DNA of 63,661 bases, filler included. It is 10 parts of 10 records of this genome, joined end to end, with 100 filler letters (N's around TTAATTAATTAA, not from the genome) between each part and the next. Parts side by side here need not be neighbours in the genome. Positions count along the whole stretch, not along the records: positions 35,112 to 40,645 come from SRR31156797_61117; 9 more parts are not named here. One strand, given 5' to 3'. The notes below the pieces were generated by a model. It ran no database searches, was not told the origin of the DNA, and saw only the letters and a program-made list of their open reading frames with translations. The position numbers were made by a program, and so were the translations under genes. The stretch's first letter is position 1. Each line of letters begins with the position of its first letter. This document shows positions 5,504-40,745 of this stretch, one piece after another.

Positions 5504-5603
5504 NNNNNNNNNNNNNNNNNNNNNNNNNNNNNNNNNNNNNNNNNNNNTTAATTAATTAANNNNNNNNNNNNNNNNNNNNNNNNNNNNNNNNNNNNNNNNN
5601 NNN
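5504..5603. other. Artificial contig spacer
   Basis: N44-TTAATTAATTAA-N44 (stop codons in six frames); base composition changes across it. Confidence 0.99.
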
Positions 5604-8729: not shown

Positions 8730-9944
8730 TTAATGTTTAAAAATTTTACCCAGATTCGCCGTGGTCAAGCTGTCCTCCATATACATGCCCAGGCCCGTTT
8801 GACGCAGGGATTCCATGCCCCGTTCGTCGTAGACCACGTTTTCCACCTCCGGTGCCTCTTCAGGGGTAACGGTTTCGGCGATTTCGATGCATTTTTCAAG
8901 TTTTTCAAATGAAAAATCGATCAGGTAGCGCAGGAAGGCGAAGGGGTGACGAATCATGTGAAAGCCGTATTTCATGCACAGGGCCTGTCCCATTCTGGCG
9001 TCTTCATAGGCTCGATCGGTGAGGTGTTCCTCATGGGTGGTGCCGGCACTCTGAAAAGCGGGAAGATCCAGCATCAAATTGAGGTGGGTCATGAGCAGGT
9101 TCAGATAATTGTGGCTGACCAGACCGTAGTTGGGGTTGTATTCGATGCTGGGGTCGGCGATGGTGGGGTAGCCCGCATGAACACAGGTGACCCCCGGGTT
9201 CAACAGCTGGGCCGCGCAGATGCCGAATAAAACTTCCGCATGGGTCATGGAAAGAACGCCGTTATAGCAGTAAGGGGCGCTGATGCCGGCCATGGGCATG
9301 GCGGAGATAAAGGTGGGGAGTCCGGCCTTCACCACCTTTACAAAATGGTCGGAGAAATTTTCGTTCACTTCCAGGGGCGGCCGGGTGAGGCAGAAAACGA
9401 TCATGATGTTTTTTCGCTGCCCGTAGATTTTGAGGGCCTGATCCAATGCCTTGTCGGAGGTTACGGCGAAGTAGAGGGGCTTTGAACAGTTTTCCGCCAT
9501 AATTGTCATCTGTTCCACTTCATCTTTCAGTTTGATGCCGCGGCCCATGCCGCCCACGGGACCGTTTCTTTCGGCAATCCGGGCAATGCGCGCGGCATGC
9601 TCGGCGGTGGGAAAAACGCCGCCCTCTCCTTTTTGGTCGTCGTAAACATAAGGGGCCGTTCCCCCGATGAAAAAGCTTTTGAGGGGAACAAAAAAGTCAT
9701 TCACCCCCGGGGTGGTTTGAAGACATTTTTCCACCAGGTCGCGCATTAGATAAATTCGATCTTCATAGACGGCGGCCAACCCTTCCGCTTCAAGCTTCTT
9801 AAAGACCTGCTGCATGTCCGGCTGTTTGCATCCCACGCCCAGGTTTTCCAGAATCCACAAAGCGTCTTGATGGGATTGCAGCAACATTTCCACTGCTGAA
9901 TCACCTAAAAGTGATTTTGATTTTTCGACTTGCGCGGTATTCAA
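8730..9944 (-). CDS. Trimethylamine methyltransferase (MttB) superfamily protein, non-pyrrolysine
   Basis: LWILENLGVG, MPMAGISAP and GVLSMTHAEVLFGICAAQLLNPG segments; no in-frame TAG; TTG start behind AAGGAGA. Confidence 0.75.
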   Translation of the reverse strand: MNTAQVEKSKSLLGDSAVEMLLQSHQDALWILENLGVGCKQPDMQQVFKKLEAEGLAAVYEDRIYLMRDLVEKCLQTTPGVNDFFVPLKSFFIGGTAPYVYDDQKGEGGVFPTAEHAARIARIAERNGPVGGMGRGIKLKDEVEQMTIMAENCSKPLYFAVTSDKALDQALKIYGQRKNIMIVFCLTRPPLEVNENFSDHFVKVVKAGLPTFISAMPMAGISAPYCYNGVLSMTHAEVLFGICAAQLLNPGVTCVHAGYPTIADPSIEYNPNYGLVSHNYLNLLMTHLNLMLDLPAFQSAGTTHEEHLTDRAYEDARMGQALCMKYGFHMIRHPFAFLRYLIDFSFEKLEKCIEIAETVTPEEAPEVENVVYDERGMESLRQTGLGMYMEDSLTTANLGKIFKH

Positions 9945-10724: not shown

Positions 10725-10823
10725 AATCAGTTCCTCAAATACACGATACTCTCCGCCACATCTACCATAAAGCCTGAATTTCGAGCAACAAAATAATAGG
10801 CTCCTGTTTTGAAGAGAGGCAAC

Positions 10824-11582
10824 ATGATACAATTCAAAAAAGTTTGCAAGTCCTTCGATGAAGGCCGATCCTTTGCCGTAAATGACCTTTCCTTAGAGGT
10901 AAACACGGGCGAGACCCTGGTCCTCTTAGGCTCATCGGGCAGCGGCAAAACCACCACCCTGAAAATGATCAACCGGCTCATTGAACCGAGCGGGGGGAGA
11001 ATCGAAGTGGGCGGTGAGGATGTCATGAAACAGGACCCGGTGAAACTGCGACGAAAAATCGGCTATGTTTTTCAAGGGATCGGCCTTTTCCCGCACATGA
11101 CCGTTGGAGAGAATGTGGGGTTGGTTCCCCGGCTTTCAGGTGAATTCATCCATGAAAGAGAAGCAAACACTCAAAAGCTTTTGGAACTGGTGGGTCTCCC
11201 CGCAGAAACCTTTGCCCATCGGTTTCCCGACGAACTTTCCGGCGGTCAGCAACAGCGGGTGGGTGTGGCCCGTGCACTGGCTGACAATCCGGAATATCTT
11301 CTCATGGACGAGCCGTTCGGTGCCCTGGATGCGCTGAATCGCGAACTGCTGCAACAGGAATTGCTGAGTCTGAAGAGGAAGCTGAAAAAGACCGTTGTTT
11401 TTGTCACCCATGATATTTTTGAGGCGTTTTTGCTGGGCGATCGCATTGCGATTTTGCATCAGGGGAAGCTTGAACAGATTGGACCGAAAAGGGAAATCCT
11501 ATCCGCTCCGGCCACCCCCTTTGTAAAGAGTCTTATTTCCAAACCTGCCAGGCAATTGGCCGATTTTCAGGGAATGGTCTGA
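10824..11582 (+). CDS. Osmoprotectant (glycine betaine/choline-type) ABC transporter ATP-binding protein
   Basis: GSSGSGKTT, MINRLIEP, LSGGQQQRVGVARALA and MDEPFGALD motifs. Confidence 0.9.
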   Translation: MIQFKKVCKSFDEGRSFAVNDLSLEVNTGETLVLLGSSGSGKTTTLKMINRLIEPSGGRIEVGGEDVMKQDPVKLRRKIGYVFQGIGLFPHMTVGENVGLVPRLSGEFIHEREANTQKLLELVGLPAETFAHRFPDELSGGQQQRVGVARALADNPEYLLMDEPFGALDALNRELLQQELLSLKRKLKKTVVFVTHDIFEAFLLGDRIAILHQGKLEQIGPKREILSAPATPFVKSLISKPARQLADFQGMV

Positions 11583-13171
11583 TGCCTGCTGAACCCTTAG
11601 GAACTTTTATTTTAGAGCGCTTGCCCGAGCTCTGGCTTCGAACGGGCGAGCATCTCATGCTGACAGGCGTTTCCTCCATGGCGGCTGTGCTGATCGGAAT
11701 ACCCGTCGGCATCCTTTTGTTTCGGAGACCATGGCTACGTAAAGTTGCCATGGGGGCTATCAGCATTGTTCAGACCATTCCGAGTCTGGCCATGCTGGCC
11801 TTCCTGCTGGCGCTCCTTCATCGGATCGGTGCATTGCCGGCAATCATCGCCCTGACCCTCTATGCGCTGCTTCCCATTGTCCGCAATACCATTACGGGGC
11901 TGGAAGGGGTATCACCTCAAATAATGGAGGCCGCCAAGGGTATGGGGATGACGAAAGGACAGCGACTGCGTATGGTCCGAATGCCCTTAGCCGCCCCGGT
12001 CATCGTTGCGGGGATCCGAACCGCCGCGGTGCTGGGGGTGGGTATTGCCACCCTTTCCGCTTTTATCGGCGCCGGCGGGCTAGGGCAGTTCATCAACCGC
12101 GGTCTTGCCCTTTCCAACACAAGGCTCATCCTCCTGGGAGCTGTTCCTGCCGCTCTTTTGGCGCTTCTCATAGATTTTACCATCGGCGCATTTGAGTGGG
12201 GCCTCGCACCGGAAAGAAGACGCGCCAAGAGGGGATCGTTTGGAGGTATGTTGAGGTTTGCAACACGGGTAATGCCGGTTCTGTTGATTTTGGCCGGTAT
12301 AGGGGTCTATGTCAGCGGTGCTGTTTTGGGAAATCGCGAAAGCCTATCGGACGACCATGGAGATACTGTGGTTGTGGGAGCAAAGAATTTCACGGAACAA
12401 TTGATCTTGGGCGAGTTGATGGCCCAGGTGATAGAGAAACGGACACCCCTAAAGGTTGAGCGCCGTTTCAATCTTGGCGGTACCATGATCTGCCATGCCG
12501 CACTCCTAAACGGCGAAATTGATCTTTACGCCGAGTATACGGGTACGGGATTGACCGCGATTCTCAAGGCGCCGGTGATCTCTGACCCGGAGACGGCCTT
12601 GCAGCACGTACGAAAAGAATATGACGAACGTTTCGGTATTAAATGGCTAACGCCTTTCGGATTCAACAATACCTATGCCGTAACGGTGCGCAAAGACCAG
12701 GCCCGGAAGCATGGGTGGCATAAAATTTCGGATCTGAAACAAGAACAAAATGAACTTCGTGCGGGTTTCACCGCCGAATTTTCCGAAAGGGCGGACGGTT
12801 ATCCGGGATTGAGCAACGCCTACGGTCTTCGGTTCATGGAAGTTAAGGATTTGGAACCGTCCATGATGTACAAGGCCGTGGCCAACAAAGAGGTGGATGT
12901 GATTTGCGCCTTTGCCACGGACGGTCGTATTGAAGCCTATCAATTGAAGCCGCTTCAGGATGACCGAGATTTTTTTCCCCCTTACCATGCGGCACCCATT
13001 ATCAGGGAAAAGTGTCTCGAAAAAAGTGTAGCACTTGAAAAAGCCCTTCTATCCCTGGGCGGCCTTATTGATGATGACGCAATGCAGCGTCTGAATTTTC
13101 AGGTCGACGGTGAGGGATTGAGTCCGGCGAAGGCTGCAAATTCTTTTCTCAGAATGAAAGGGCTCATTTAG
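11582..13171 (+). CDS. Osmoprotectant ABC transporter permease fused to substrate-binding domain
   Basis: QTIPSLA and EAAKGMGM permease motifs, then KNFTEQ, YAEYTGT, FGFNNTY and FFPPY binding-protein motifs. Confidence 0.9.
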   Translation: MPAEPLGTFILERLPELWLRTGEHLMLTGVSSMAAVLIGIPVGILLFRRPWLRKVAMGAISIVQTIPSLAMLAFLLALLHRIGALPAIIALTLYALLPIVRNTITGLEGVSPQIMEAAKGMGMTKGQRLRMVRMPLAAPVIVAGIRTAAVLGVGIATLSAFIGAGGLGQFINRGLALSNTRLILLGAVPAALLALLIDFTIGAFEWGLAPERRRAKRGSFGGMLRFATRVMPVLLILAGIGVYVSGAVLGNRESLSDDHGDTVVVGAKNFTEQLILGELMAQVIEKRTPLKVERRFNLGGTMICHAALLNGEIDLYAEYTGTGLTAILKAPVISDPETALQHVRKEYDERFGIKWLTPFGFNNTYAVTVRKDQARKHGWHKISDLKQEQNELRAGFTAEFSERADGYPGLSNAYGLRFMEVKDLEPSMMYKAVANKEVDVICAFATDGRIEAYQLKPLQDDRDFFPPYHAAPIIREKCLEKSVALEKALLSLGGLIDDDAMQRLNFQVDGEGLSPAKAANSFLRMKGLI

Positions 13172-14449: not shown

Positions 14450-16279
14450 TCATTCTCGCGGCCCCGGGACCTCTCCGGACTGCTCCACGGGAAGGGTGAC
14501 TGAAAAGACGGCGCCCTTTCCCGGAGTGCTTTCAAACTCCAGGCTTCCATTCAACTCATCAATGATCTTCTTGGATATGGCCAGACCGAGCCCGGTGTTG
14601 CTTTTCGTTATTTTGGTACTGAAGAAGGGTGTCATAATCTTGTCTTTCACGGCGTCATCTATCCCGTATCCGTTATCCGCGACCAGAATACGAACGCGAT
14701 TCCCGTTCGCAACCAGACGGGTAGTCACCTCGATCGTCCCCTGGGGCAGGACCGCGTCAATGCTGTTGATAATGATGTTCAGAAAGACCTGTTTCAACCT
14801 ATTGGCATCACCGCAGATCTTGACTTCGCTCTTGTCAAAGCGGGATGCGAAATCAATTCTCTTCTCAATCAGTTTATGATGAATCAGGTCCAGTACGTCT
14901 GTGAGCAGATTATGCAGATCAAACACATCGAGGGGGGGCTGGGTTCTGGAAAAGGAAAGGAGATTGGAAACGATGCCGCCGATTCGATCCAGTTCCTTTC
15001 CCATCTTCCGCATCTTTTCCCTTATTCCCGCATCCCTGTCCGTCGACTTCAATTCAATTAATTTGAGATTGTTCTTCACGATGAACAGGGGGTTGTTAAT
15101 CTCATGGGCCACGCCGACCGCCAGTTCGGCGAGGGAGGCATACTTTTCCGTCTCGACCATATAATCGTCCAATCCGCTTTTAAAGGAGTCATCTCTGAAC
15201 AGGATGACCTTGGCGTCGTTCAATCCGGGAAAATAGGATCGCGGAACGAGCGTGACGGAAATGATTCTGCCGTCTGTCAGGGTAATCTCGTTGAATTCGC
15301 TTTCCTGGAATTCTCCGGAGAAGACTCCGGAAGAATCGAAGATCTCAGGGAAAATCGTTTCCTGCAGCCTTTTCCCCAGCCATCCGGAGGAGATCTCAGG
15401 AAACATGGATTTGAGGGACGGATTGAAGTAAAAGATGCGATTTTCCTCTTCTAGGATCAGCATACCTTCTGTCAATCGATCCGTAGTGGATTCCAGGACA
15501 TCCCGCAGAAAACTGATCTTTCGGAGATCATCCCGGTTCTCCTGTTCCACCGAATAGGAGTAGGAGAGCTCGAAGAGCTTATATTTATCAAGTTTACTCG
15601 TCTTCTCCGTCCCGATGCGGATGCCGTTCTTCAGGATAGTGACATGATCCGAAACCTTCAGGATCTCATCAAGATCATGGGAGATGTAGATGAATGAGAC
15701 CCCCTGCTTCTTCAGCGTACTCATAGTGTTGTATACAATTTTCATCTCTCCGGGCGTCAGCTTCTGGGCGATCTCGTCCAGAATGATGATCTTGCTGTCA
15801 GTTATTATGGTCCGTGCGAATTCGACCATATACTGCTGGGCGACGGACAAACGGTAGAGGGGCGTCTCCAGATCGATGGAGTATTCCATACTGTCAAAAA
15901 GCTCGCGCGCCCGGGATTGCATCTCCGAATGCTTCAGCTTCCCCCACCAGTTTTTTATGGGCTTTCCAGAGTAAAGGTACTCCACCGCATTGTAATCGGG
16001 GATGATATTGTTATTCTGATAAACGATAGCGACCTTTTCGTCCATCGCGATCTGGGGCGTCATATAGGAATAGGAGCTATGCCCTATCCTGATAATCCCC
16101 GAATGAGGTCTCAACGCTCCGGCAATAATATTGACCAGAGATGATTTCCCGGCCCGGTGCTCGCCGATCAGGCCGTGAACCTCCCCCTCGAAGAGAGTGA
16201 AATCGACGCCGCGAAGCGCGGCTCTGTGTGCATAGTTATGAAAAATCTTTTCCAGGGAAAGGACGGTCTTATCATTCAT
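14450..16279 (-). CDS. Cytoplasmic sensor histidine kinase with N-terminal sugar-ABC ATPase (NBD) domain and PAS-like domain
   Basis: NBD motifs GEHRAGKSS, IVYQ, LSVAQQ, ILDE and YISHD; kinase motifs AHEINNPL, NIIINSIDA, DNGYGI, PFFSTK and GLGLAI; no TM helix. Confidence 0.88.
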   Translation of the reverse strand: MNDKTVLSLEKIFHNYAHRAALRGVDFTLFEGEVHGLIGEHRAGKSSLVNIIAGALRPHSGIIRIGHSSYSYMTPQIAMDEKVAIVYQNNNIIPDYNAVEYLYSGKPIKNWWGKLKHSEMQSRARELFDSMEYSIDLETPLYRLSVAQQYMVEFARTIITDSKIIILDEIAQKLTPGEMKIVYNTMSTLKKQGVSFIYISHDLDEILKVSDHVTILKNGIRIGTEKTSKLDKYKLFELSYSYSVEQENRDDLRKISFLRDVLESTTDRLTEGMLILEEENRIFYFNPSLKSMFPEISSGWLGKRLQETIFPEIFDSSGVFSGEFQESEFNEITLTDGRIISVTLVPRSYFPGLNDAKVILFRDDSFKSGLDDYMVETEKYASLAELAVGVAHEINNPLFIVKNNLKLIELKSTDRDAGIREKMRKMGKELDRIGGIVSNLLSFSRTQPPLDVFDLHNLLTDVLDLIHHKLIEKRIDFASRFDKSEVKICGDANRLKQVFLNIIINSIDAVLPQGTIEVTTRLVANGNRVRILVADNGYGIDDAVKDKIMTPFFSTKITKSNTGLGLAISKKIIDELNGSLEFESTPGKGAVFSVTLPVEQSGEVPGPRE

Positions 16280-35131: not shown

Positions 35132-35665
35132 ATGACGCGCACACGTTATAGAATATATGAGAATGAAACTCCATACTTCCTCACCGGGACAACAGTTGCC
35201 TGGCTGCCGGTATTTGCCTATCCTCAATTTGCGAACATCATTTTTGATTCCTGACGCTTTCTCCAAGAGCAAAGAGGGGTTCATATCTATGGATATATCG
35301 TCATGGAAAACCATATCCATTGGATTGCATCCGGAAAAGATTTAAAAGAGCAAATAGGAAGGTTTAAGTCATTCACTGCCAGGCAGATAATAGCCGGCCT
35401 TAAAAAAGAAGGCTTTGTAACTATTATAAAGGAACTGCATTATTTCAAACTTCCGCATAAAGGCGAACAGGAACTACAGTTATGGCAGGAGGGAAATCAT
35501 CCTCAGGAAATCCTGAATGAAGGCATGATGAGACAGAAACTGGAATACATCCATCAAAATCCGGTCCGGCGAGGCTATGTGGATAAACCGGAGGATTGGA
35601 GATATTCCAGCGCAAGGAATTATGCAAATGGAGTCGGTTTAATCAATATTGCAGCCCAATGGTAG
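35132..35665 (+). pseudogene. REP-associated tyrosine transposase (RAYT / TnpA-REP) with an in-frame stop
   Basis: MTRTRYRI..PYFLT..WLPVF is in frame with the track ORF at 35303 (HUH motif MENHIH, YIHQNPVRRG, WRYSSA); TGA at 35252-35254 (codon 41). Confidence 0.82.
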
Positions 35666-35669
35666 CTAA

Positions 35670-35722
35670 TCGAGGCAGAGCCTCGAAGACATGGCGTTCC
35701 CAGGCAGGAGCCTGGGAACGAG
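35670..35722. repeat. REP element next to the RAYT
   Basis: Double hairpin CGAGGC-AGA-GCCTCG and CGTTCCCAGGC-AGGA-GCCTGGGAACG. Confidence 0.8.
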
Positions 35723-35777
35723 GATTCAACGAGAGTTGAATGATCAGGGCAAATGCTCAAGGCGCATAAATAGATAC

Positions 35778-35814
35778 ACTCTCGTTCCCGTGCTCTGAGG
35801 CTGGGAACGAGAGT
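35778..35814. repeat. Second REP / collapsed REP pair
   Basis: ACTCTCGTTCCC...GGGAACGAGAGT 12-bp inverted repeat sharing the CTGGGAACGAG end with the first REP. Confidence 0.7.
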
Positions 35815-35946
35815 TCAATCCCATTTCAACAAATTTTTCCTTTTTAATCTATTCTTAATTTATTGATCAATTTCAAACGTTTAACTTAATCGGTCATCTT
35901 TTTCTACAAATCCTCGCAAACCTGCCGCAAAGTCTTCATGGTCATG

Positions 35947-35975
35947 TTGTTGGAAATTCCCCTTTGGCTTATACT
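35947..35975 (+). promoter_or_regulatory. Candidate sigma70 promoter of the HMA-glgA operon
   Basis: TTGTTG-N17-TATACT. Confidence 0.45.
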
Positions 35976-36049
35976 ATTTTAAAAATACAGTCCGTCCCCT
36001 GCACTTTTTGGGGCAAGGCCTGTGTGGGAAGCAAAGCGGGTATAATAAA

Positions 36050-36328
36050 ATGAAGGAACTGCTTTTCCGGGTAAACGGCATGGAGCTGCACGGCGGCATG
36101 ACCTGACTCGGTTGACCCCTGGGCATCAGGAAGGCCCTGGTCAGGGCCGAAGGAATTAAATAGGTTGAATACGATCAGGATACAGGCGTTTTCCGAGCCT
36201 GCTTTGAACGGGATAAGTTAAGCCACGAAGATATCGCGGGTATAGTGCGAGCACATGGGATACGCCTTCATCGCCCTTACGACCCGGTTATTTTAAAGAT
36301 CAACTCTACCAAGGATGTGAAAAAGTGA
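36050..36328 (+). CDS. Heavy-metal-associated (HMA/CopZ/MerP-like) protein, candidate selenoprotein with UxxU and an internal TAG; not in the ORF track
   Basis: Manual translation MKELLFRVNGMELHGGMT*LG*PLGIRKALVRAEGIK*VEYDQDTGVFRACFERDKLSHEDIAGIVRAHG...; TGA at 36104 and 36113 sit at both Cys positions of GMTCxxC; TAG at 36161; final TGA overlaps the glgA GTG. Confidence 0.72.
36133..36148 (+). promoter_or_regulatory. Candidate bacterial SECIS element
   Basis: GGCCCT-GGTC-AGGGCC hairpin whose GG-starting apical loop is 32 and 23 nt after the two UGA codons. Confidence 0.65.
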
Positions 36329-37785
36329 ATTCCGATTCTCTATCTGTATTGGTTGTGGCGCCTGAAGTCGCCCCCCTGGCCCAGACGGGCGGCCTGGGAG
36401 AAGTAGCCGGCAGCCTCCCTTTAGCGCTCAAGGCTCTTGGATGCGATGTGGCCGTTTGCATGCCCGCTTACCGTTGCGTTCTGGAAAGGCTTAACGGTTA
36501 TGACGTCCTGGTCGAGGACCTGCCGGTTAGACTAGGTCCTACACATTTGTCGGCTGAAGTATTGATCAGCGAGTTGGCCCCTGGAATTCCCTTATATCTT
36601 ATCAGGCGCGACGAGTTTTACGACCGCAGCGAGTTGTACAATGGTCACCAGGGAGAATATTTTGACAACCCGGAAAGGTATATATTTTTCTCAAGAAGCA
36701 TCCCGCCTCTTTGCCCGAGCGTAGGTTTTACGCCTGACATTATTTTGGGAAACGACTGGCAGGCAGGCCTGGTCATGGCCTTGCTGGACCTGGGGGCTTT
36801 ACCGAAATCAGCCGGGATTCAGGCTGTTCACAACCAGGGCTATTTAGGCTTGGTCCCTCCCGAACGGACGGTGAATATAGGATTGCCCGACCGGTATTAC
36901 GGTATGGACGGCCTGGAGTATTACGGCCAAATGAGTCTGCTCAAAGCCGGCATTGTATACGCTTCCGCGGTAACCACGGTCAGCCCGACCTATGCCCGCG
37001 AAGTTCAAACCCCGGAAGGCGGACACGGCCTGGATGGAGTTATGCGCGCCATCAGCCATAGACTTTACGGCATCCTTAACGGCGTGAACTACGAGGTCTG
37101 GAATCCGGAGACCGACGAGAACATAAGGGCCAATTATTCAGCAAGCGACCTGTCCGGCAAGTCTCTGTGCAAAACCGGATTGCTGGATGAGTTCGGTTTG
37201 CCGTCCTCGGACGACAGGCCTTTACTGGGAATGGTCAGCCGTTTGACTGCTCAAAAGGGGGTCAACATACTTGCCGAATCGTTGGAAGAAATTTTCGCAA
37301 TGAATGCGGATGTCGTTATATTGGGCTCCGGCGACATGCATCATGAAAATCTGATAACAGGGCTTCAATCAAGGTTTCCTGAACAACTGGGTTTGAAGCT
37401 TGGTTACGATGCGCCATTGGCCCACAAAATAATAAGCGGCTGTGACATACTTTTAATGCCTTCCATGTATGAACCTTGCGGCCTGGCCCAGATGTACGGA
37501 CTCAAATACGGGACAACGCCCCTGGTCCGCTCCACCGGAGGACTGAACGACACGGTATCGGACGGTGGAAACGAACCTGAAAACGGAACAGGGTTCAAAT
37601 TCAACGCCTTCCAGTCGCGCGCCCTGGTGCGCGCCGTCAAAAGAGCGGTGGAAGCGTTTCACAACAAGGACAATTGGCAGGCCATGATGATCAGGGGAAT
37701 GGAACAGGACTTTTCCTGGGACCGTTCGGCCCGGGAGTATATTTCCGTTTTTGAAAAAGCTCTTGAAACCAGGAGAAACAGGTAA
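36325..37785 (+). CDS. glgA: Glycogen synthase
   Basis: EVAPLAQTGGLGEV, NDWQ, GILNGV and MPSMYEPCGLAQMY motifs. Confidence 0.92.
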   Translation: MNSDSLSVLVVAPEVAPLAQTGGLGEVAGSLPLALKALGCDVAVCMPAYRCVLERLNGYDVLVEDLPVRLGPTHLSAEVLISELAPGIPLYLIRRDEFYDRSELYNGHQGEYFDNPERYIFFSRSIPPLCPSVGFTPDIILGNDWQAGLVMALLDLGALPKSAGIQAVHNQGYLGLVPPERTVNIGLPDRYYGMDGLEYYGQMSLLKAGIVYASAVTTVSPTYAREVQTPEGGHGLDGVMRAISHRLYGILNGVNYEVWNPETDENIRANYSASDLSGKSLCKTGLLDEFGLPSSDDRPLLGMVSRLTAQKGVNILAESLEEIFAMNADVVILGSGDMHHENLITGLQSRFPEQLGLKLGYDAPLAHKIISGCDILLMPSMYEPCGLAQMYGLKYGTTPLVRSTGGLNDTVSDGGNEPENGTGFKFNAFQSRALVRAVKRAVEAFHNKDNWQAMMIRGMEQDFSWDRSAREYISVFEKALETRRNR

Positions 37786-37787
37786 AA

Positions 37788-40235
37788 ATGGCGGACAAAT
37801 ATTTATGCATCCACGGCCACTTTTATCAGCCCCCCAGGGAAAATCCCTGGCTGGGGATAATAGAGGACCAACCGTCGGCCCGTCCTTTTCATGACTGGAA
37901 CGAACGCATTACCAGGGAGTGCTACGCTCCCAACCTTCGCGCCAGGTTGCTGGACGAAGGCCGAATCGCCCGTCTGGTCAATAATTATCAATATATGAGC
38001 TTCAATTTCGGCCCGACCCTTCTCGCCTGGATGGCCGAAGCCAACCCCGGTGTATACAAGGACATACTGGCCGCGGACCATATAGGAGCGCAGAGAAACA
38101 ATGGACACGGCGCCGCCCTGGCCCAGGTTTACAACCATATCATTATGCCGCTGGCCAATGAAAGGGACGCCCTGATCCAGATCCGGTGGGGACTAAGGGA
38201 TTTTCAAAGCCGATTTGGAAGAAAAGCCGAAGGAATGTGGCTTTCGGAAACGGCCGCCAATACCGAAACCCTGAAACTCCTGGCCATGGAAGGATTGAAA
38301 TTCACCATACTGGCGCCTGACCAGGCCTGGAAAATAAGGCCCATGAATAATGACCCGGAATCCGGCGTTCCGTCTTCCGAGAATGACTGGGAGGATGTCA
38401 GCGGAGGCCGGGTGGATCCCAGACGCCCATACCGGGTGTTTTTAAATGAGACTAAAGATTTATATATTGATGTGTTTTTCTATGACGGACCGACTTCCAG
38501 GGCCATTGCCTATGAAAAACTATTGGCTTCGGGCTCCGGGTTTCTATCTCGCATTCAACAGGCTTTCGGAAGCGAAACGCAATGGCCGCGACTGGTCAAC
38601 CTGGCCACGGACGGGGAGTCTTACGGGCATCACTTTCAGTTCGGCGACATGGCCCTGGCCTGGGTTTTTGACCAGTTGGAAAAGGACCAATCGATCAAGG
38701 TCGTCAATTACGGATATTACCTGGAAATGTTCCCCCCGACACATGAAGCCCTTATCGTGGAGAACAGCTCGTGGAGCTGCGCCCACGGCGTGGAAAGGTG
38801 GCGTTCCAACTGCGGCTGCCATACAGGGGGAGAGGAAGGATGGAGCCAGCAGTGGCGGGTGCATTTAAGGGAAGGGCTTGACTGGCTCAGGGACCGGTTG
38901 ATTCAAATTTTCGAGGAAAAGGGCGGGGAATTGTTCCGGGATCCATGGCAGGCCAGGGATGATTTCATATCGGTGTTGCTCGATCCTTCCCATGAAGCCC
39001 GGGAAGCATTTTTGATCAAACACGCAGCCGTAAAACTGGATGAAAAGAAAAAGACCCAAGCTTTGAGCCTGATGGAATCCCAGTTGATGTCCTTATACAT
39101 GTTCACCAGTTGCGGCTGGTTTTTTGACGACATTGCCGGCCTGGAGCCTGTCCAGAACATGCGGTACGCGGCCAGGGCCATATATCTGGTAAAGGATTGG
39201 ATAAAAGGCCTGGAAGAGGGGCTTTTATCTCATTTGGCGCAGGCGCAAGTTAATTCAGATGAGTTCACAGACGGCGCGGATGTGTACAAAAGAAAAGCTC
39301 TTTCCGCCCAAATCGGCCCTTCCCGTATTGTAGCCCATTATGCTTTTCGAACCCTGGTTGAAGATGCGGCTGAAGAAAAGTGTTTCCAGGCCAAATCGGT
39401 CCGCCCATTAAAACACCGGCGATTCAGTGAATCGGGACTGACGGCTTTTTTCGGCGAAGCGGAAATTATGGATGACAGAACCGGTAAAAAGTACATTCGA
39501 AGCTTCATGTCCCTGCAATATGGCGGCGCCGGGCTGGCCTGCCTGGTTTCAGCCGGCGCCGGCCTTGATATTGACGCCATGTCGGTAGATATAAAACCGG
39601 CCCTGGAAGAGGCGTCATCGGTTCGAATAATTGAAGCCTGCGGCAGGCATCTGCCAAATGCACAGAATTTCAGTTTGGACGATCTCATACCCGACAGTCG
39701 AAACAGCTTGGTCCGTAAACTGGCCAAAGGATTTTTTAACGGTTTACGGGAATGGGTCATGGATAATTATTCGGCTCATCGGGAGGTTTTGTCCCTGTAC
39801 CGGGAATCCGGAGAACCGGCGCCGTACATAGAAAATTTCCTTTTTCGAACATTGATAAGCGACCGGCTAACCCGCCTTGTGAGTGAAGAAAGCGGCCCGG
39901 TTGACTTGGAAGCCTTGAGCGCTTTGGGCAGACAAGCCCGTGACTGGGGGGTCAGCCCGGATGAACCTTTTCTGACCAGGATGGTTTCAACGTTTTTAAG
40001 AACCCGCTTTGAGCGGCTTAACAGAAATACGGGCAGGGTTGAAATAGATGAGCTTGTCGGCCTTCTTCGCCTGATAAAAAAATATTCAATAAGCCAGAAC
40101 ATGTGGGAAAGTCAGAATCTCTTTTACGACCTTTATTCCAATCCCCGGTTCAGGGAGGAATTATCCGCGGAGCTTAAAGCCGGTTACGCCCTGCTCGGCC
40201 GCGAGTTGGGATTTACTTACTTTGACAAGCCCTGA
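37788..40235 (+). CDS. Glycoside hydrolase family 57 protein with DUF3536
   Basis: IHGHFYQPPRENPW, GMWLSE, ATDGESYGHH, SWSCAHGVERW and MFTSCGWFFD motifs. Confidence 0.88.
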   Translation: MADKYLCIHGHFYQPPRENPWLGIIEDQPSARPFHDWNERITRECYAPNLRARLLDEGRIARLVNNYQYMSFNFGPTLLAWMAEANPGVYKDILAADHIGAQRNNGHGAALAQVYNHIIMPLANERDALIQIRWGLRDFQSRFGRKAEGMWLSETAANTETLKLLAMEGLKFTILAPDQAWKIRPMNNDPESGVPSSENDWEDVSGGRVDPRRPYRVFLNETKDLYIDVFFYDGPTSRAIAYEKLLASGSGFLSRIQQAFGSETQWPRLVNLATDGESYGHHFQFGDMALAWVFDQLEKDQSIKVVNYGYYLEMFPPTHEALIVENSSWSCAHGVERWRSNCGCHTGGEEGWSQQWRVHLREGLDWLRDRLIQIFEEKGGELFRDPWQARDDFISVLLDPSHEAREAFLIKHAAVKLDEKKKTQALSLMESQLMSLYMFTSCGWFFDDIAGLEPVQNMRYAARAIYLVKDWIKGLEEGLLSHLAQAQVNSDEFTDGADVYKRKALSAQIGPSRIVAHYAFRTLVEDAAEEKCFQAKSVRPLKHRRFSESGLTAFFGEAEIMDDRTGKKYIRSFMSLQYGGAGLACLVSAGAGLDIDAMSVDIKPALEEASSVRIIEACGRHLPNAQNFSLDDLIPDSRNSLVRKLAKGFFNGLREWVMDNYSAHREVLSLYRESGEPAPYIENFLFRTLISDRLTRLVSEESGPVDLEALSALGRQARDWGVSPDEPFLTRMVSTFLRTRFERLNRNTGRVEIDELVGLLRLIKKYSISQNMWESQNLFYDLYSNPRFREELSAELKAGYALLGRELGFTYFDKP

Positions 40236-40310
40236 AAACAAGACACACACAAATCTCACCATTAAACCGAACGTCTCCGATTATCCAGGAGCGGCGGACG
40301 GGAGATAAAA

Positions 40311-40645
40311 ATGATTAATCTGGTAATGGCGCTTCATTGCCACCAGCCAATCGGAAATTTTGACAAGGTTTTTGAACAGGCCCACGAAGAATGCTACCGG
40401 CCGGTGTTGGATCTTCTGGACAGGCATCCGGGCATCAAGGCCGGGATGCACTTTTCCGGCTGTCTGCTTGAGTGGTTGGAGGAAAACAAATCCGGGACAA
40501 TCGACATGCTGGCGGCCATGGTCGACCGCGGCCAGTTGGAAATGCTTTCCGGAGGCTTCTATGAGCCGCTTCTGGCAACCATCCCGGAAGACGACGCCCG
40601 AGGTCAGGTCGAAATGTTGAACGAATATATAGAACGCCGCATGGG
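40311..40645 (+). CDS. GH57 alpha-amylase / 4-alpha-glucanotransferase (3' truncated)
   Basis: ALHCHQPIGNF, HFSGCLLEWL and GGFYEPLL motifs. Confidence 0.82.
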
Positions 40646-40745
40646 NNNNNNNNNNNNNNNNNNNNNNNNNNNNNNNNNNNNNNNNNNNNTTAATTAATTA
40701 ANNNNNNNNNNNNNNNNNNNNNNNNNNNNNNNNNNNNNNNNNNNN
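40646..40745. other. Artificial contig spacer
   Basis: N44-TTAATTAATTAA-N44. Confidence 0.99.

What the first reader, a model, noticed from the sequence alone, without database searches (positions are those of the whole stretch)
36050..36328. Hidden HMA-domain gene with TGA at both metal-binding Cys positions (candidate UxxU di-selenoprotein)
Seen: the gap before glgA, empty in the ORF track, translates from ATG 36050 as MKELLFRVNGMELHGGMT-TGA-LG-TGA-PLGIRKALVRAEGIK-TAG-VEYDQDTGVFRACFERDKLSHEDIAGIVRAHGIRLHRPYDPVILKINSTKDVKK-TGA (92 codons plus stop). This follows the CopZ/MerP HMA pattern (F.V.GM, GMTCxxC, I.KAL...GI..V, FD...S.EDI...V...G). The TGAs at 36104 and 36113 fall exactly on the two Cys positions. 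A GGCCCT-GGTC-AGGGCC hairpin follows, with its loop 23 and 32 nt downstream. Established: bacterial SECIS hairpins lie just 3' of the UGA with G at the start of the apical loop, GGUC is the loop core of the E. coli fdhF SECIS, and Desulfobacterota are selenoprotein-rich. Inference: this is a metal chaperone or redox protein with two Sec residues served by one SECIS, which could bind Hg/Cu/Ag with two selenolates or form a diselenide.
Basis: partly seen in the sequence, partly recalled or inferred. Interest (0 to 1): 0.92.

Follow-up and report, generated by a model that had tools for sequence, protein, structure and literature searches.

The report
Interrupted two-selenocysteine metal-binding gene
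The small frame before glgA belongs to a real but uncatalogued family of metal-binding proteins that use selenocysteine in place of cysteine, yet this copy also has an ordinary stop codon in its middle and is probably broken.

Summary
Frame 36050-36328 (+) has TGA at 36104 and 36113, TAG at 36161, and a GGCCCU-GGUC-AGGGCC hairpin at 36133-36148.

The frame is not a chance ORF. It belongs to a family of about 85-100 aa cytoplasmic HMA-fold proteins. I assembled 22 relatives, and an HMM built from them without the window scores it at 83.2 bits. In that family the first metal-binding position is TGA in all 14 DNA-verified copies, the window included. The second position is Cys or TGA, and one relative is CxxC. 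Conservation runs past both TGAs. The hairpin meets the published bacterial SECIS constraints for both UGAs. selA and selB were present in 5 of 5 tested genomes that carry relatives.

The kind is already known. NCBIfam NF041115 (UxxU_metal_bind) is listed in selenoproteome reviews. The window's family stays below the cut-off of NF041115 and of every other curated model tried. In two loci it sits beside a MerP-like UxxU/CxxU selenoprotein (one over the NF041115 cut-off) in mer-like operons.

It lies in strand β2, none of the 22 relatives has a stop there, and TAG ends 8 of 33 long ORFs in this window. The copy is most likely freshly inactivated unless TAG is read through. The source genome's Sec and Pyl machinery could not be tested.

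The parts
36050..36328 (+). Reading frame of 92 codons plus stop: an HMA-fold protein of an uncurated UxxC/UxxU selenoprotein family, interrupted by TAG at codon 38
   Evidence: Translation. Family HMM 83.2 bits. AF2 model pLDDT 84.2 with a β-α-β-β-α-β order. The best PDB matches by Foldseek are HMA domains, MerP and CopZ.
36104..36106 (+). First TGA (codon 19), candidate Sec, at the first metal-binding position in the loop before helix 1
   Evidence: This column is TGA in 14 of 14 DNA-verified rows, the window included. It is W (TGA read as Trp by a gene caller, inferred) in 6 database proteins and Cys in 1.
36113..36115 (+). Second TGA (codon 22), candidate Sec, at the second metal-binding position on the first turn of helix 1
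   Evidence: This column is TGA in the window, L037 and L039, W in 6 database proteins, and Cys in 12 rows.
36133..36148 (+). SECIS-like hairpin: 6-bp stem GGCCCU/AGGGCC with apical loop GGUC
   Evidence: -10.1 kcal/mol. The loop starts 32 nt after TGA1 and 23 nt after TGA2. It meets the four bSECIS constraints quoted in PMC13188914. A hairpin occupies the same codons in L037, L038 and L039, with 2 compensatory pairs.
36161..36163 (+). In-frame TAG (codon 38) inside predicted strand β2: the defect of this copy
   Evidence: None of 22 relatives has a stop in this column (K7 E5 R4 A3 Q2 S1). TAG ends 8 of 33 long ORFs in the window. Strand E36-42 in the model.
36325..37785 (+). glgA (glycogen/starch synthase). 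Its GTG start overlaps the stop of the HMA-like frame by 4 nt (GTGA).
   Evidence: Pfam Glyco_transf_5, E 1.1e-62. ORF list.

Best explanation
The frame is a copy of a small cytoplasmic HMA-fold (β-α-β-β-α-β) metal-binding protein family. In this family the first ligand of the CxxC-type site is almost always selenocysteine, and the second is Cys or Sec. Here both are UGA (UxxU).

In intact relatives, the mechanism I infer is as follows. SelB reads the UGA codon(s) as Sec with the help of a hairpin formed by the codons for the start of helix 1 (K-A-L-x-x-x). The product presents one or two selenolates at the loop/helix-1 junction. These bind a soft metal or metalloid, most likely Hg(II) in the mer-like operons and possibly As(III) elsewhere. 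The protein then acts as the cytoplasmic acceptor behind a MerT-like transporter and a periplasmic MerP-like selenoprotein.

The window's copy keeps the start, both UGAs, the hairpin, the length and the family residues. It also carries a UAG at codon 38 that no relative has, in a genome region where UAG is a normal stop. Ribosomes that pass both UGAs would therefore release a 37-residue peptide lacking β2-β4. So this copy is most likely a recently inactivated gene, standing alone before glgA and away from any metal operon.

Shown: the sequence features, family membership, the TGA/Cys alternation, the fold, the hairpin, and Sec genes in relatives' genomes. Inferred: Sec insertion, metal specificity, the relay role, and the inactivation.
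For: Family.
- phmmer against 1.84e9 representatives gave 74 hits at E<=1e-3. I inspected 12 of them, and four had the same small architecture: P0007 with CxxC, P0021 and P0025 with WxxW, and P0031 starting just after the motif.
- A profile search found 9 proteins: 6 WxxW, 1 CxxC and 2 fragments.
- DNA of a relative shows TGA at both positions (L036/L037).
- In 401 sampled genomes of the phylum of G001, 13 genomes gave 14 matches at E 8.5e-20 to 1.1e-25. All had 1 or 2 TGA inside and no other stop. Twelve were fetched: 11 are UxxC and 1 is UxxU.
- The core alignment of 23 rows has no gaps.
- The HMM built without the window scores the whole frame at 83.2 bits, the part before the TAG at 43.2 and the part after at 28.1. 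The best of 200 shuffles scored 4.5.

Fold. AF2 pLDDT is 84.2. Foldseek top hits are HMA7 3dxs (TM 0.74/0.91), MerP 1osd and CopZ.

SECIS. The loop is GGUC, the stem 6 bp, the energy -10.1 kcal/mol, and the loop lies 32 and 23 nt from the UGAs. The published constraints are a 3-9 nt loop, a 4-16 bp stem, G in the first two loop positions, 16-37 nt spacing and MFE <= -7.5 (passage of PMC13188914). A hairpin is shared with L037-L039.

Sec use. selB and selA are over the curated cut-offs in 5 of 5 tested genomes, out of the 13 that carry the family.

Context of relatives. L037 and L039 hold MerR, Thioredoxin_3, a MerT-like protein, a MerP-like selenoprotein and then the family gene. The MerP-like protein scores 108.7 bits on NF041115 in L037 and 80.8 bits in L039, against a cut-off of 95.

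Break. The TAG lies in β2. None of 22 relatives has a stop there. TAG ends 8 of 33 long ORFs. The letters are confirmed at depth about 49.
Against: Apart from the TAG, the copy shows no decay. It has no frameshift or indel, typical codon usage, an intact hairpin, and a post-TAG part that still matches the family. That fits a very recent mutation, but it fits read-through equally well.

The source genome could not be searched for selABCD, pyl genes or suppressor tRNAs. No other convincing selenoprotein gene was found in the window, and the window holds only a tRNA-Val.

A related strain in an independent run carries the locus, but its letters at the three stop codons were not shown.

The metal role rests on the gene neighbourhoods of relatives only. 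The window's own neighbours are chemotaxis/signalling and glycogen genes.

The six WxxW proteins are taken to be TGA without their DNA.
Confidence: 0.6

Rival explanations
1. The gene is intact and expressed as a full-length UxxU di-selenoprotein. The UAG at codon 38 would be decoded as pyrrolysine, by an amber suppressor tRNA, or by leaky termination. It falls at a surface-variable position where any residue is tolerated.
For: Everything except the TAG is intact: frame, length, family residues, hairpin and codon usage. The TAG column is variable in relatives, with six different residues. Pyl and Sec can coexist in this group: PylB is over its cut-off in 4 of 209 genomes of the order of G001, and one of them (G153) also has a MerP-like UxxU gene.
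Against: TAG ends 8 of 33 long ORFs here. No relative has TAG in that column (0 of 22). The prior for Pyl genes is about 2%. The MttB-family gene in the window has no in-frame TAG. No pyl gene or extra tRNA was seen in the window, though only 29 of its ORFs were scanned.
Confidence: 0.2
2. The frame now acts only as a translated leader (uORF) for glgA. Ribosomes that start at 36050 stall or stop at the UGAs or the UAG, and this sets how much glgA is made, perhaps in response to selenium supply.
For: The frame ends in a 4-nt overlap (GTGA) with the glgA start, and glgA's AGGA ribosome-binding stretch lies inside it. No terminator-like site lies between them.
Against: No relative inspected sits before glgA. 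Conservation is that of a folded protein, not of a leader peptide. Nothing links glycogen synthesis to selenium. This is pure inference.
Confidence: 0.05
3. It is an old CxxC pseudogene. All three stops would be nonsense mutations, and the TGAs would coincide with the Cys codons because TGC/TGT to TGA is a single step.
For: There are three in-frame stops in 92 codons. No Sec machinery could be shown for this genome. The Pfam HMA score is below the gathering cut-off.
Against: TGA at the first position is shared by all 13 other DNA-verified copies from different genomes, and TGA at the second by L037 and L039. A SECIS-type hairpin sits at the right distance. There are no indels or frameshifts, and codon usage is normal.
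Confidence: 0.03
4. One or both UGAs are read as cysteine rather than selenocysteine, by a SECIS-dependent tRNA of the tRNA-ReC (SelC*) type. The product would then be CxxC or mixed.
For: A 2026 paper on group 4 [NiFeSe] hydrogenases reports tRNA-ReC-like genes more often in genomes with UxxU motifs, and discusses one SECIS serving both UGAs (passages of PMC13582414).
Against: Not testable here, because no genome is held. It does not remove the TAG problem.
Confidence: 0.05
5. It is a chance open frame in the glgA upstream spacer, with no gene.
For: 47.5% of off-frame 92-codon windows have 3 or fewer stops. The 76-nt fold is not unusual, with z = -0.47.
Against: The family HMM scores 83.2 bits. 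An HMA fold is predicted with pLDDT 84. Codon usage is typical of genes.
Confidence: 0.01

Closest known systems
NCBIfam NF041115, UxxU_metal_bind, 'metal-binding (seleno)protein'. The 2022 and 2026 selenoproteome reviews list it as 'putative mercuric reductase / metal-binding protein', UxxU, 2 Sec.
   Same: HMA-type fold, with two Sec at the CxxC-type site followed by Pro. A SECIS hairpin is built from the K-A-L-x-G codons: GGCCCUGGAAGGGCU in L037:2133-2441 and L006, against GGCCCUGGUCAGGGCC here. It is found in Desulfobacterota.
   Different: The window scores 26.4 bits and its relatives 17-31 bits, against a cut-off of 95. The three NF041115-type (MerP-like) examples seen (one over the cut-off) have a signal-peptide-like N-terminus, which the window's family lacks. 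The family has extra residues between the G-M of β1 and the motif (GM-xxx-GG-F-T-U). Most members are UxxC. In L037 and L039 the two are separate, adjacent genes.
Pfam PF00403 HMA domain: MerP, CopZ/Atx1 metallochaperones and the N-terminal domains of P1B ATPases
   Same: Predicted β-α-β-β-α-β fold, with the ligand pair in the loop and on the first turn of helix 1. The best structural matches are 3dxs, 1osd, 1kqk and 6ff2.
   Different: Sec replaces Cys. The sequence is below the Pfam gathering score, 17.3 against 24.8 bits. The loop before the motif is longer, and the model's pLDDT there is only 63.
NmerA, the N-terminal HMA domain of mercuric reductase that takes Hg(II) from MerT (recalled from general knowledge of the mer system, not tested here)
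   Same: It is a cytoplasmic HMA domain placed after MerT and MerP in the pathway. In L037 and L039 the family gene follows the MerT-like and MerP-like genes.
   Different: The family gene is free-standing, and no MerA was seen in the fetched flanks. It uses Sec ligands. The window's copy has no mer neighbours.
UxxU motifs in group 4 [NiFeSe] hydrogenases (PMC13582414)
   Same: Two UGAs lie 9 nt apart, with one downstream SECIS-like hairpin proposed to serve both. They occur in Desulfobacterota among other phyla (passages).
   Different: The protein and metal site are unrelated.

Membership tests
Pfam PF00403 (HMA) | HMM score at or above the gathering cut-off (24.8 bits) | tested here: not met
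   17.3 bits, E 0.0065, residues 16-64
Pfam PF00403 (HMA) | Ferredoxin-like β-α-β-β-α-β fold | tested here: met
   AF2 on a 10-row alignment: E2-9, H21-31, E36-42, E47-52, H59-72, E78-86, pLDDT 84.2. Foldseek gave 45 PDB matches at E<=0.001, and every match listed is an HMA-type domain.
Pfam PF00403 (HMA) | Two thiol(ate)-type ligands spaced xx at the loop/helix-1 junction | tested here: met
   Codons 19 and 22 align with the CxxC of P0007 and of canonical HMA proteins. Here both are TGA.
NCBIfam NF041115 (UxxU_metal_bind) | HMM score at or above the curated cut-off (95 bits) | tested here: not met
   26.4 bits. A true member, L037:2133-2438, scores 108.7 bits in the same test.
NCBIfam NF041115 (UxxU_metal_bind) | UxxU (or CxxU) followed by Pro | tested here: met
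   T-U-L-G-U-P
Bacterial selenoprotein gene | In-frame UGA aligned with Cys in homologues | tested here: met
   P0007 has Cys at both positions, and 11 loci have Cys at the second.
Bacterial selenoprotein gene | Protein conservation continues 3' of the UGA | tested here: met
   The alignment has no gaps through the core of the domain. The part after codon 38 alone scores 28.1 bits, against at most 4.5 for shuffles.
Bacterial selenoprotein gene | [quoted passage not shown] | tested here: met
   Loop GGUC, 6 bp, 32 and 23 nt, -10.1 kcal/mol. bSECISearch itself was not available.
Bacterial selenoprotein gene | selA, selB, selC and selD in the same genome | not testable with these tools
   No genome is held for the window. 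Of the 13 genomes carrying relatives, selB and selA were over the cut-off in 5 of 5 tested.
Bacterial selenoprotein gene | Frame otherwise open | tested here: not met
   TAG at codon 38
The uncurated family itself (GG-[FM]-[TV]-U-x-G-[UC]-P small cytoplasmic HMA-like proteins) | Match to an HMM built from 22 relatives without the window | tested here: met
   83.2 bits, E 6e-28 for one sequence
Pyrrolysine-containing protein | TAG conserved at the site in homologues | tested here: not met
   0 of 22 relatives. Only TGA was counted inside the 14 genome matches.
Pyrrolysine-containing protein | pylT and pylSBCD in the genome | not testable with these tools
   No genome is held. PylB is over its cut-off in 4 of 209 genomes of the order of G001.

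The most novel reading that the evidence does not exclude
All three internal stops are decoded: UGA19 and UGA22 as selenocysteine through one shared SECIS, and UAG38 as pyrrolysine or by another programmed read-through. That would make a 92-residue metal-binding protein with three recoded stop codons, a natural protein carrying both the 21st and the 22nd amino acid. A more sober version is also new: this is an uncatalogued Sec-dependent cytoplasmic metallochaperone family that works with the MerP-like selenoprotein as a selenium-based Hg relay without MerA.
Probability: 0.05. Interest if true: 0.9.

Novelty: new variant of a known kind. Interest (0 to 1): 0.35.

Why it matters
For annotation: gene callers miss this family or mistranslate it. 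Six database entries show Trp-x-x-Trp and two start after the motif. No Pfam or NCBIfam model reaches its cut-off on any member tested, so a whole group of Sec-dependent metal-binding proteins is hidden in Desulfobacterota genomes (13 of 401 sampled).

For biology: in two loci the family sits next to a MerP-like UxxU/CxxU selenoprotein in a MerR/MerT-like operon. This suggests that some anaerobes handle mercury, or another soft metal, with selenolate ligands on both sides of the membrane. That idea can be tested with intact relatives.

For this window: the copy is a caution. A striking UxxU frame can still be a dead gene, and the TAG must be explained before any claim about a di-selenoprotein here.

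Tried and rejected
- Single-protein scans of genome contigs and metagenome contigs found no relative. The word-index protein search with the single protein found none.
- Synteny: the nearest glgA is 55% identical, in L001, a Desulfobacteraceae MAG. It has an ABC-transporter ATPase upstream, not an HMA-like gene. Searching G001 and G002 with the protein found only weak matches to ordinary HMA-like stretches, E 0.02-0.36.
- In the order of G001 (209 genomes) no family-level match appeared. The only hit with stops was a MerP-like UxxU gene in G153.
- An alignment of 10 rows was too diverse for a locus scan, so I used 5 close rows instead.
- Rfam found nothing beyond a tRNA at gathering thresholds, and only chance-level hits in 35650-36450.
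- The promoter and terminator scan of 35650-36450 found none. A lone TATAAT at 36041-36046, seen by eye, has no -35 partner.
- The 76-nt fold around the UGAs is not more stable than shuffles, z = -0.47. Only the local hairpin stands out.
- For the ten UxxC loci, RNAalifold gave only a weak consensus of 5 invariant pairs with no covariation, so I make no SECIS claim for that subgroup.
- A scan of the window for other TGA- or TAG-interrupted coding frames gave 10 candidates. All look like antisense frames of real genes, and none was followed up further.
- Sequencing runs: no RNA holder was listed. Run X3 laid nothing. Run X2 covers 35702-37200, but only its differences up to 35916 were printed, so the three stop codons in that strain remain unknown.
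- Earlier findings of this scan: nothing by place or by sequence.
- Literature: searches found no paper describing this particular family. I saw only search listings and found-passages of PMC9312934, PMC13188914, PMC1976440, PMC13582414 and bioRxiv 10.1101/2022.07.06.499078. Their supplements were not seen and might list such proteins.

Full report
**Observation**

- ATG is at 36050.
- TGA is at 36104-36106 (codon 19) and 36113-36115 (codon 22).
- TAG is at 36161-36163 (codon 38).
- The closing TGA at 36326-36328 overlaps the GTG start of glgA at 36325.
- The 16-nt hairpin GGCCCU-GGUC-AGGGCC lies at 36133-36148. Its loop begins 32 nt after the first TGA and 23 nt after the second.

An independent assembly of the probable source run reproduces 35200-37200 with no difference at depth about 49. 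The stops are therefore not an assembler artefact. That run may be the window's own source, so it adds no independent biology.

**Is it more than chance?**

- Codon usage. I scored codon usage against 33 long ORFs of the window. The frame scores 0.214 per codon. That is the 57th percentile of true in-frame 92-codon windows, and only 3.4% of off-frame windows reach it.
- Hairpin. It folds at -10.1 kcal/mol and is among the best 0.54% of 17870 24-mers. Only 35 of 1187 TGA triplets on the + strand have as good a hairpin in the same range downstream.
- Wider fold. The 76-nt stretch around the UGAs is not unusually stable, z = -0.47.

**Curated models give only weak matches**

With TGA read as Cys:
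- Pfam HMA scores 17.3 bits, E 0.0065, below the 24.8-bit gathering score.
- The best NCBIfam model is NF041115, UxxU_metal_bind, 'metal-binding (seleno)protein'. It scores 26.4 bits against a cut-off of 95.

The existence of that model shows that UxxU HMA-type selenoproteins are a known kind. Two reviews list it as a UxxU protein with two Sec, first predicted in 2007. I saw table passages of PMC9312934 and PMC13188914.

**A real family**

- phmmer against 1.84 billion representatives gave 74 hits at E<=1e-3, and I looked at 12 of them. Four had the window's size and layout:
  - P0007, with GGFT-C-VG-C-P;
  - P0021 and P0025, with Trp at both positions;
  - P0031, which starts right after the motif.
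- A profile search found 9 proteins: six W-x-x-W, one C-x-x-C and two post-motif fragments.
- Trp at both ligand positions is what a gene caller prints when it picks a TGA=Trp code on a short contig. This is my inference for those six proteins.
- DNA confirms TGA for the subgroup. The metagenome loci L036 and L037 carry a 58%-identical relative with TGA at both positions.
- A six-frame search covered 401 genomes sampled from the phylum of G001. G001 is the Desulfobacteraceae MAG with the nearest glgA, at 55% identity.
  - 13 genomes gave 14 matches, at E from 8.5e-20 to 1.1e-25.
  - Each match had one or two TGA inside and no other stop.
  - I fetched 12. Eleven read U-x-G-C-P and one reads U-x-G-U-P. 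The unfetched second copy in G238 has two TGA.
- The 209 genomes of G001's order had no family-level match.
- In the 23-row alignment the core has no gaps.
  - First ligand position: TGA in all 14 DNA-verified rows including the window, W in six rows, Cys in one.
  - Second ligand position: TGA in three rows, W in six, Cys in twelve.
- An HMM built from the 22 relatives, without the window, scores the window's read-through product at 83.2 bits. The part before the TAG scores 43.2 bits and the part after it 28.1 bits. The best of 200 shuffles of that last part scored 4.5 bits.
- No family member reaches the cut-off of any NCBIfam model. The best scores are 17-37 bits.

**Fold**

AlphaFold2 on the 10-row alignment gives a β-α-β-β-α-β domain with pLDDT 84.2 and pTM 0.71.
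- The loop just before the motif is the least confident part, with pLDDT 63 for residues 11-20.
- Foldseek's best PDB matches are HMA domains: 3dxs at TM 0.74/0.91, MerP 1osd, and CopZ-type chaperones.
- Residue 19 lies in the loop and residue 22 on the first turn of helix 1, as in canonical HMA proteins.

**SECIS**

A passage of PMC13188914 gives the bacterial SECIS model:
- an apical loop of 3-9 nt;
- an upper stem of 4-16 bp;
- G in one of the first two loop positions;
- 16-37 nt between the UGA and the loop;
- MFE <= -7.5 kcal/mol.

The window's hairpin meets all of these for both UGAs. bSECISearch itself was not available.

RNAalifold on the window plus L037, L038 and L039 finds a shared 8-bp hairpin at the same codons, with loops GGUC, GGAG, GGAA and GGAG and two pairs with compensatory changes. 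Four sequences make this only anecdotal.

The NF041115-type genes in L037 and L006 use a near-identical hairpin, GGCCCUGGAAGGGCU, at the homologous K-A-L-E-G codons.

For the ten UxxC loci I could not define a convincing common hairpin.

A 2026 paper on group 4 [NiFeSe] hydrogenases discusses one SECIS serving both UGAs of a UxxU motif. It also notes that tRNA-ReC may read such UGAs as Cys (passages of PMC13582414).

**Sec machinery**

No genome is held for the window. The window itself has only a tRNA-Val and no other convincing selenoprotein gene. This defining feature therefore stays untested for the source organism. Of the 13 genomes with relatives, I tested five, and selB and selA are above their cut-offs in all five.

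**What the family probably does**

In L037 and L039 the gene is the last of a mer-like set:
1. a MerR-family regulator;
2. a Thioredoxin_3 protein;
3. a MerT-like membrane protein, with sub-threshold MerT hits and a CC motif;
4. a MerP-like protein with a signal-peptide-like N-terminus and CxxU or UxxU, scoring 108.7 and 80.8 bits on NF041115;
5. the family gene, which has no signal peptide.

Other members lie near an ArsM-like methyltransferase and an ArsP permease (L041), or near XdhC and an LMW phosphatase/ArsC-like gene (L044).

I infer a cytoplasmic selenolate-based acceptor or buffer for soft metals and metalloids, analogous to NmerA. The comparison with NmerA is recalled from general knowledge and was not tested.

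The window's copy has no such neighbours. Upstream lie CheD-HDOD, CheR, a response regulator, a HAMP-GAF sensor, a 120-aa ORF and REP-like repeats. Downstream lie glgA and GH57 genes.

**The TAG**

- Codon 38 lies in strand β2. Stopping there leaves β1, the loop and helix 1 only.
- None of the 22 relatives has a stop in that column. They have K in 7 rows, E in 5, R in 4, A in 3, Q in 2 and S in 1.
- TAG closes 8 of the 33 long ORFs used for training, so it is a working stop here.
- Nothing else about the copy looks decayed.

I see two readings.
1. A very recent nonsense mutation. CAG, AAG or GAG to TAG is a single step.
2. Read-through, as Pyl, by a suppressor tRNA, or by leakiness.

PylB is over its cut-off in only 4 of 209 genomes of G001's order. 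The MttB-family gene in the window (8730-9944, minus strand) has no in-frame TAG.

I put the broken-copy reading at about 0.6 and read-through at about 0.2. A related strain in an independent run carries the locus, but the tool printed its differences only up to 35916, so it could not settle the matter.

**Verdict**

- It is a member of a genuine, uncurated UxxC/UxxU branch of the HMA superfamily, a new variant of a known kind.
- This particular copy is probably dead.
- Searches of the held library found no paper describing this branch. Supplements were not visible and might list it.

Interest is moderate for the family and low for the copy.

Noticed in passing
window 35303-35820: A 120-aa ORF (35303-35665) has no Pfam hit at E<=0.001. 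Its C-terminal motif reminds me of REP-associated tyrosine transposases (recalled, not tested). It is followed by palindromic REP-like repeats at 35695-35820. The element at 35669-35735 has word depth about 9992 against 49.5 for its flanks in the source run, so it is present in very many copies.
   Followed up: partly
window 8730-9944 (-) and 10809-13171 (+): An MttB-superfamily methyltransferase gene (PF06253, E 1.5e-18) without an in-frame TAG lies next to a fused permease/OpuAC glycine-betaine ABC transporter. It is probably a non-pyrrolysine, betaine-type methyltransferase locus.
   Followed up: partly
L037:1345-3406 and L039:45-1776: These are mer-like operons with two adjacent selenoprotein genes. 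One is a periplasmic MerP-like CxxU/UxxU protein (NF041115-type) and the other the cytoplasmic family gene. They also hold MerR, a MerT-like protein and Thioredoxin_3. No MerA was seen in the fetched flanks.
   Followed up: partly
window 14450-16279 (-): A 609-aa ORF combines an ABC-transporter ATPase domain with HisKA and HATPase_c histidine-kinase domains, an unusual fusion.
   Followed up: no
window 37788-40697 (+): An 815-aa GH57 + DUF3536 gene is followed by a separate 128-aa ORF that matches only positions 38-139 of the GH57 profile. The short ORF may be a fragment or a split gene.
   Followed up: no
G153 (L006 = G153:C191:8315-11094; PylB at G153:C139:6740-7765): One genome of G001's order has both a PylB gene over its cut-off and a MerP-like gene reading GMT-U-AV-U-P with a signal peptide. 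So Pyl and UxxU selenoproteins can coexist in this group.
   Followed up: no
window 5504 onward: The window contains 792 N, starting at 5504.
   Followed up: no
window 36041-36046: A perfect TATAAT lies 4 nt before the ATG at 36050, with no -35 partner found by the scan. If it is used, transcripts would start at or inside the start codon.
   Followed up: no
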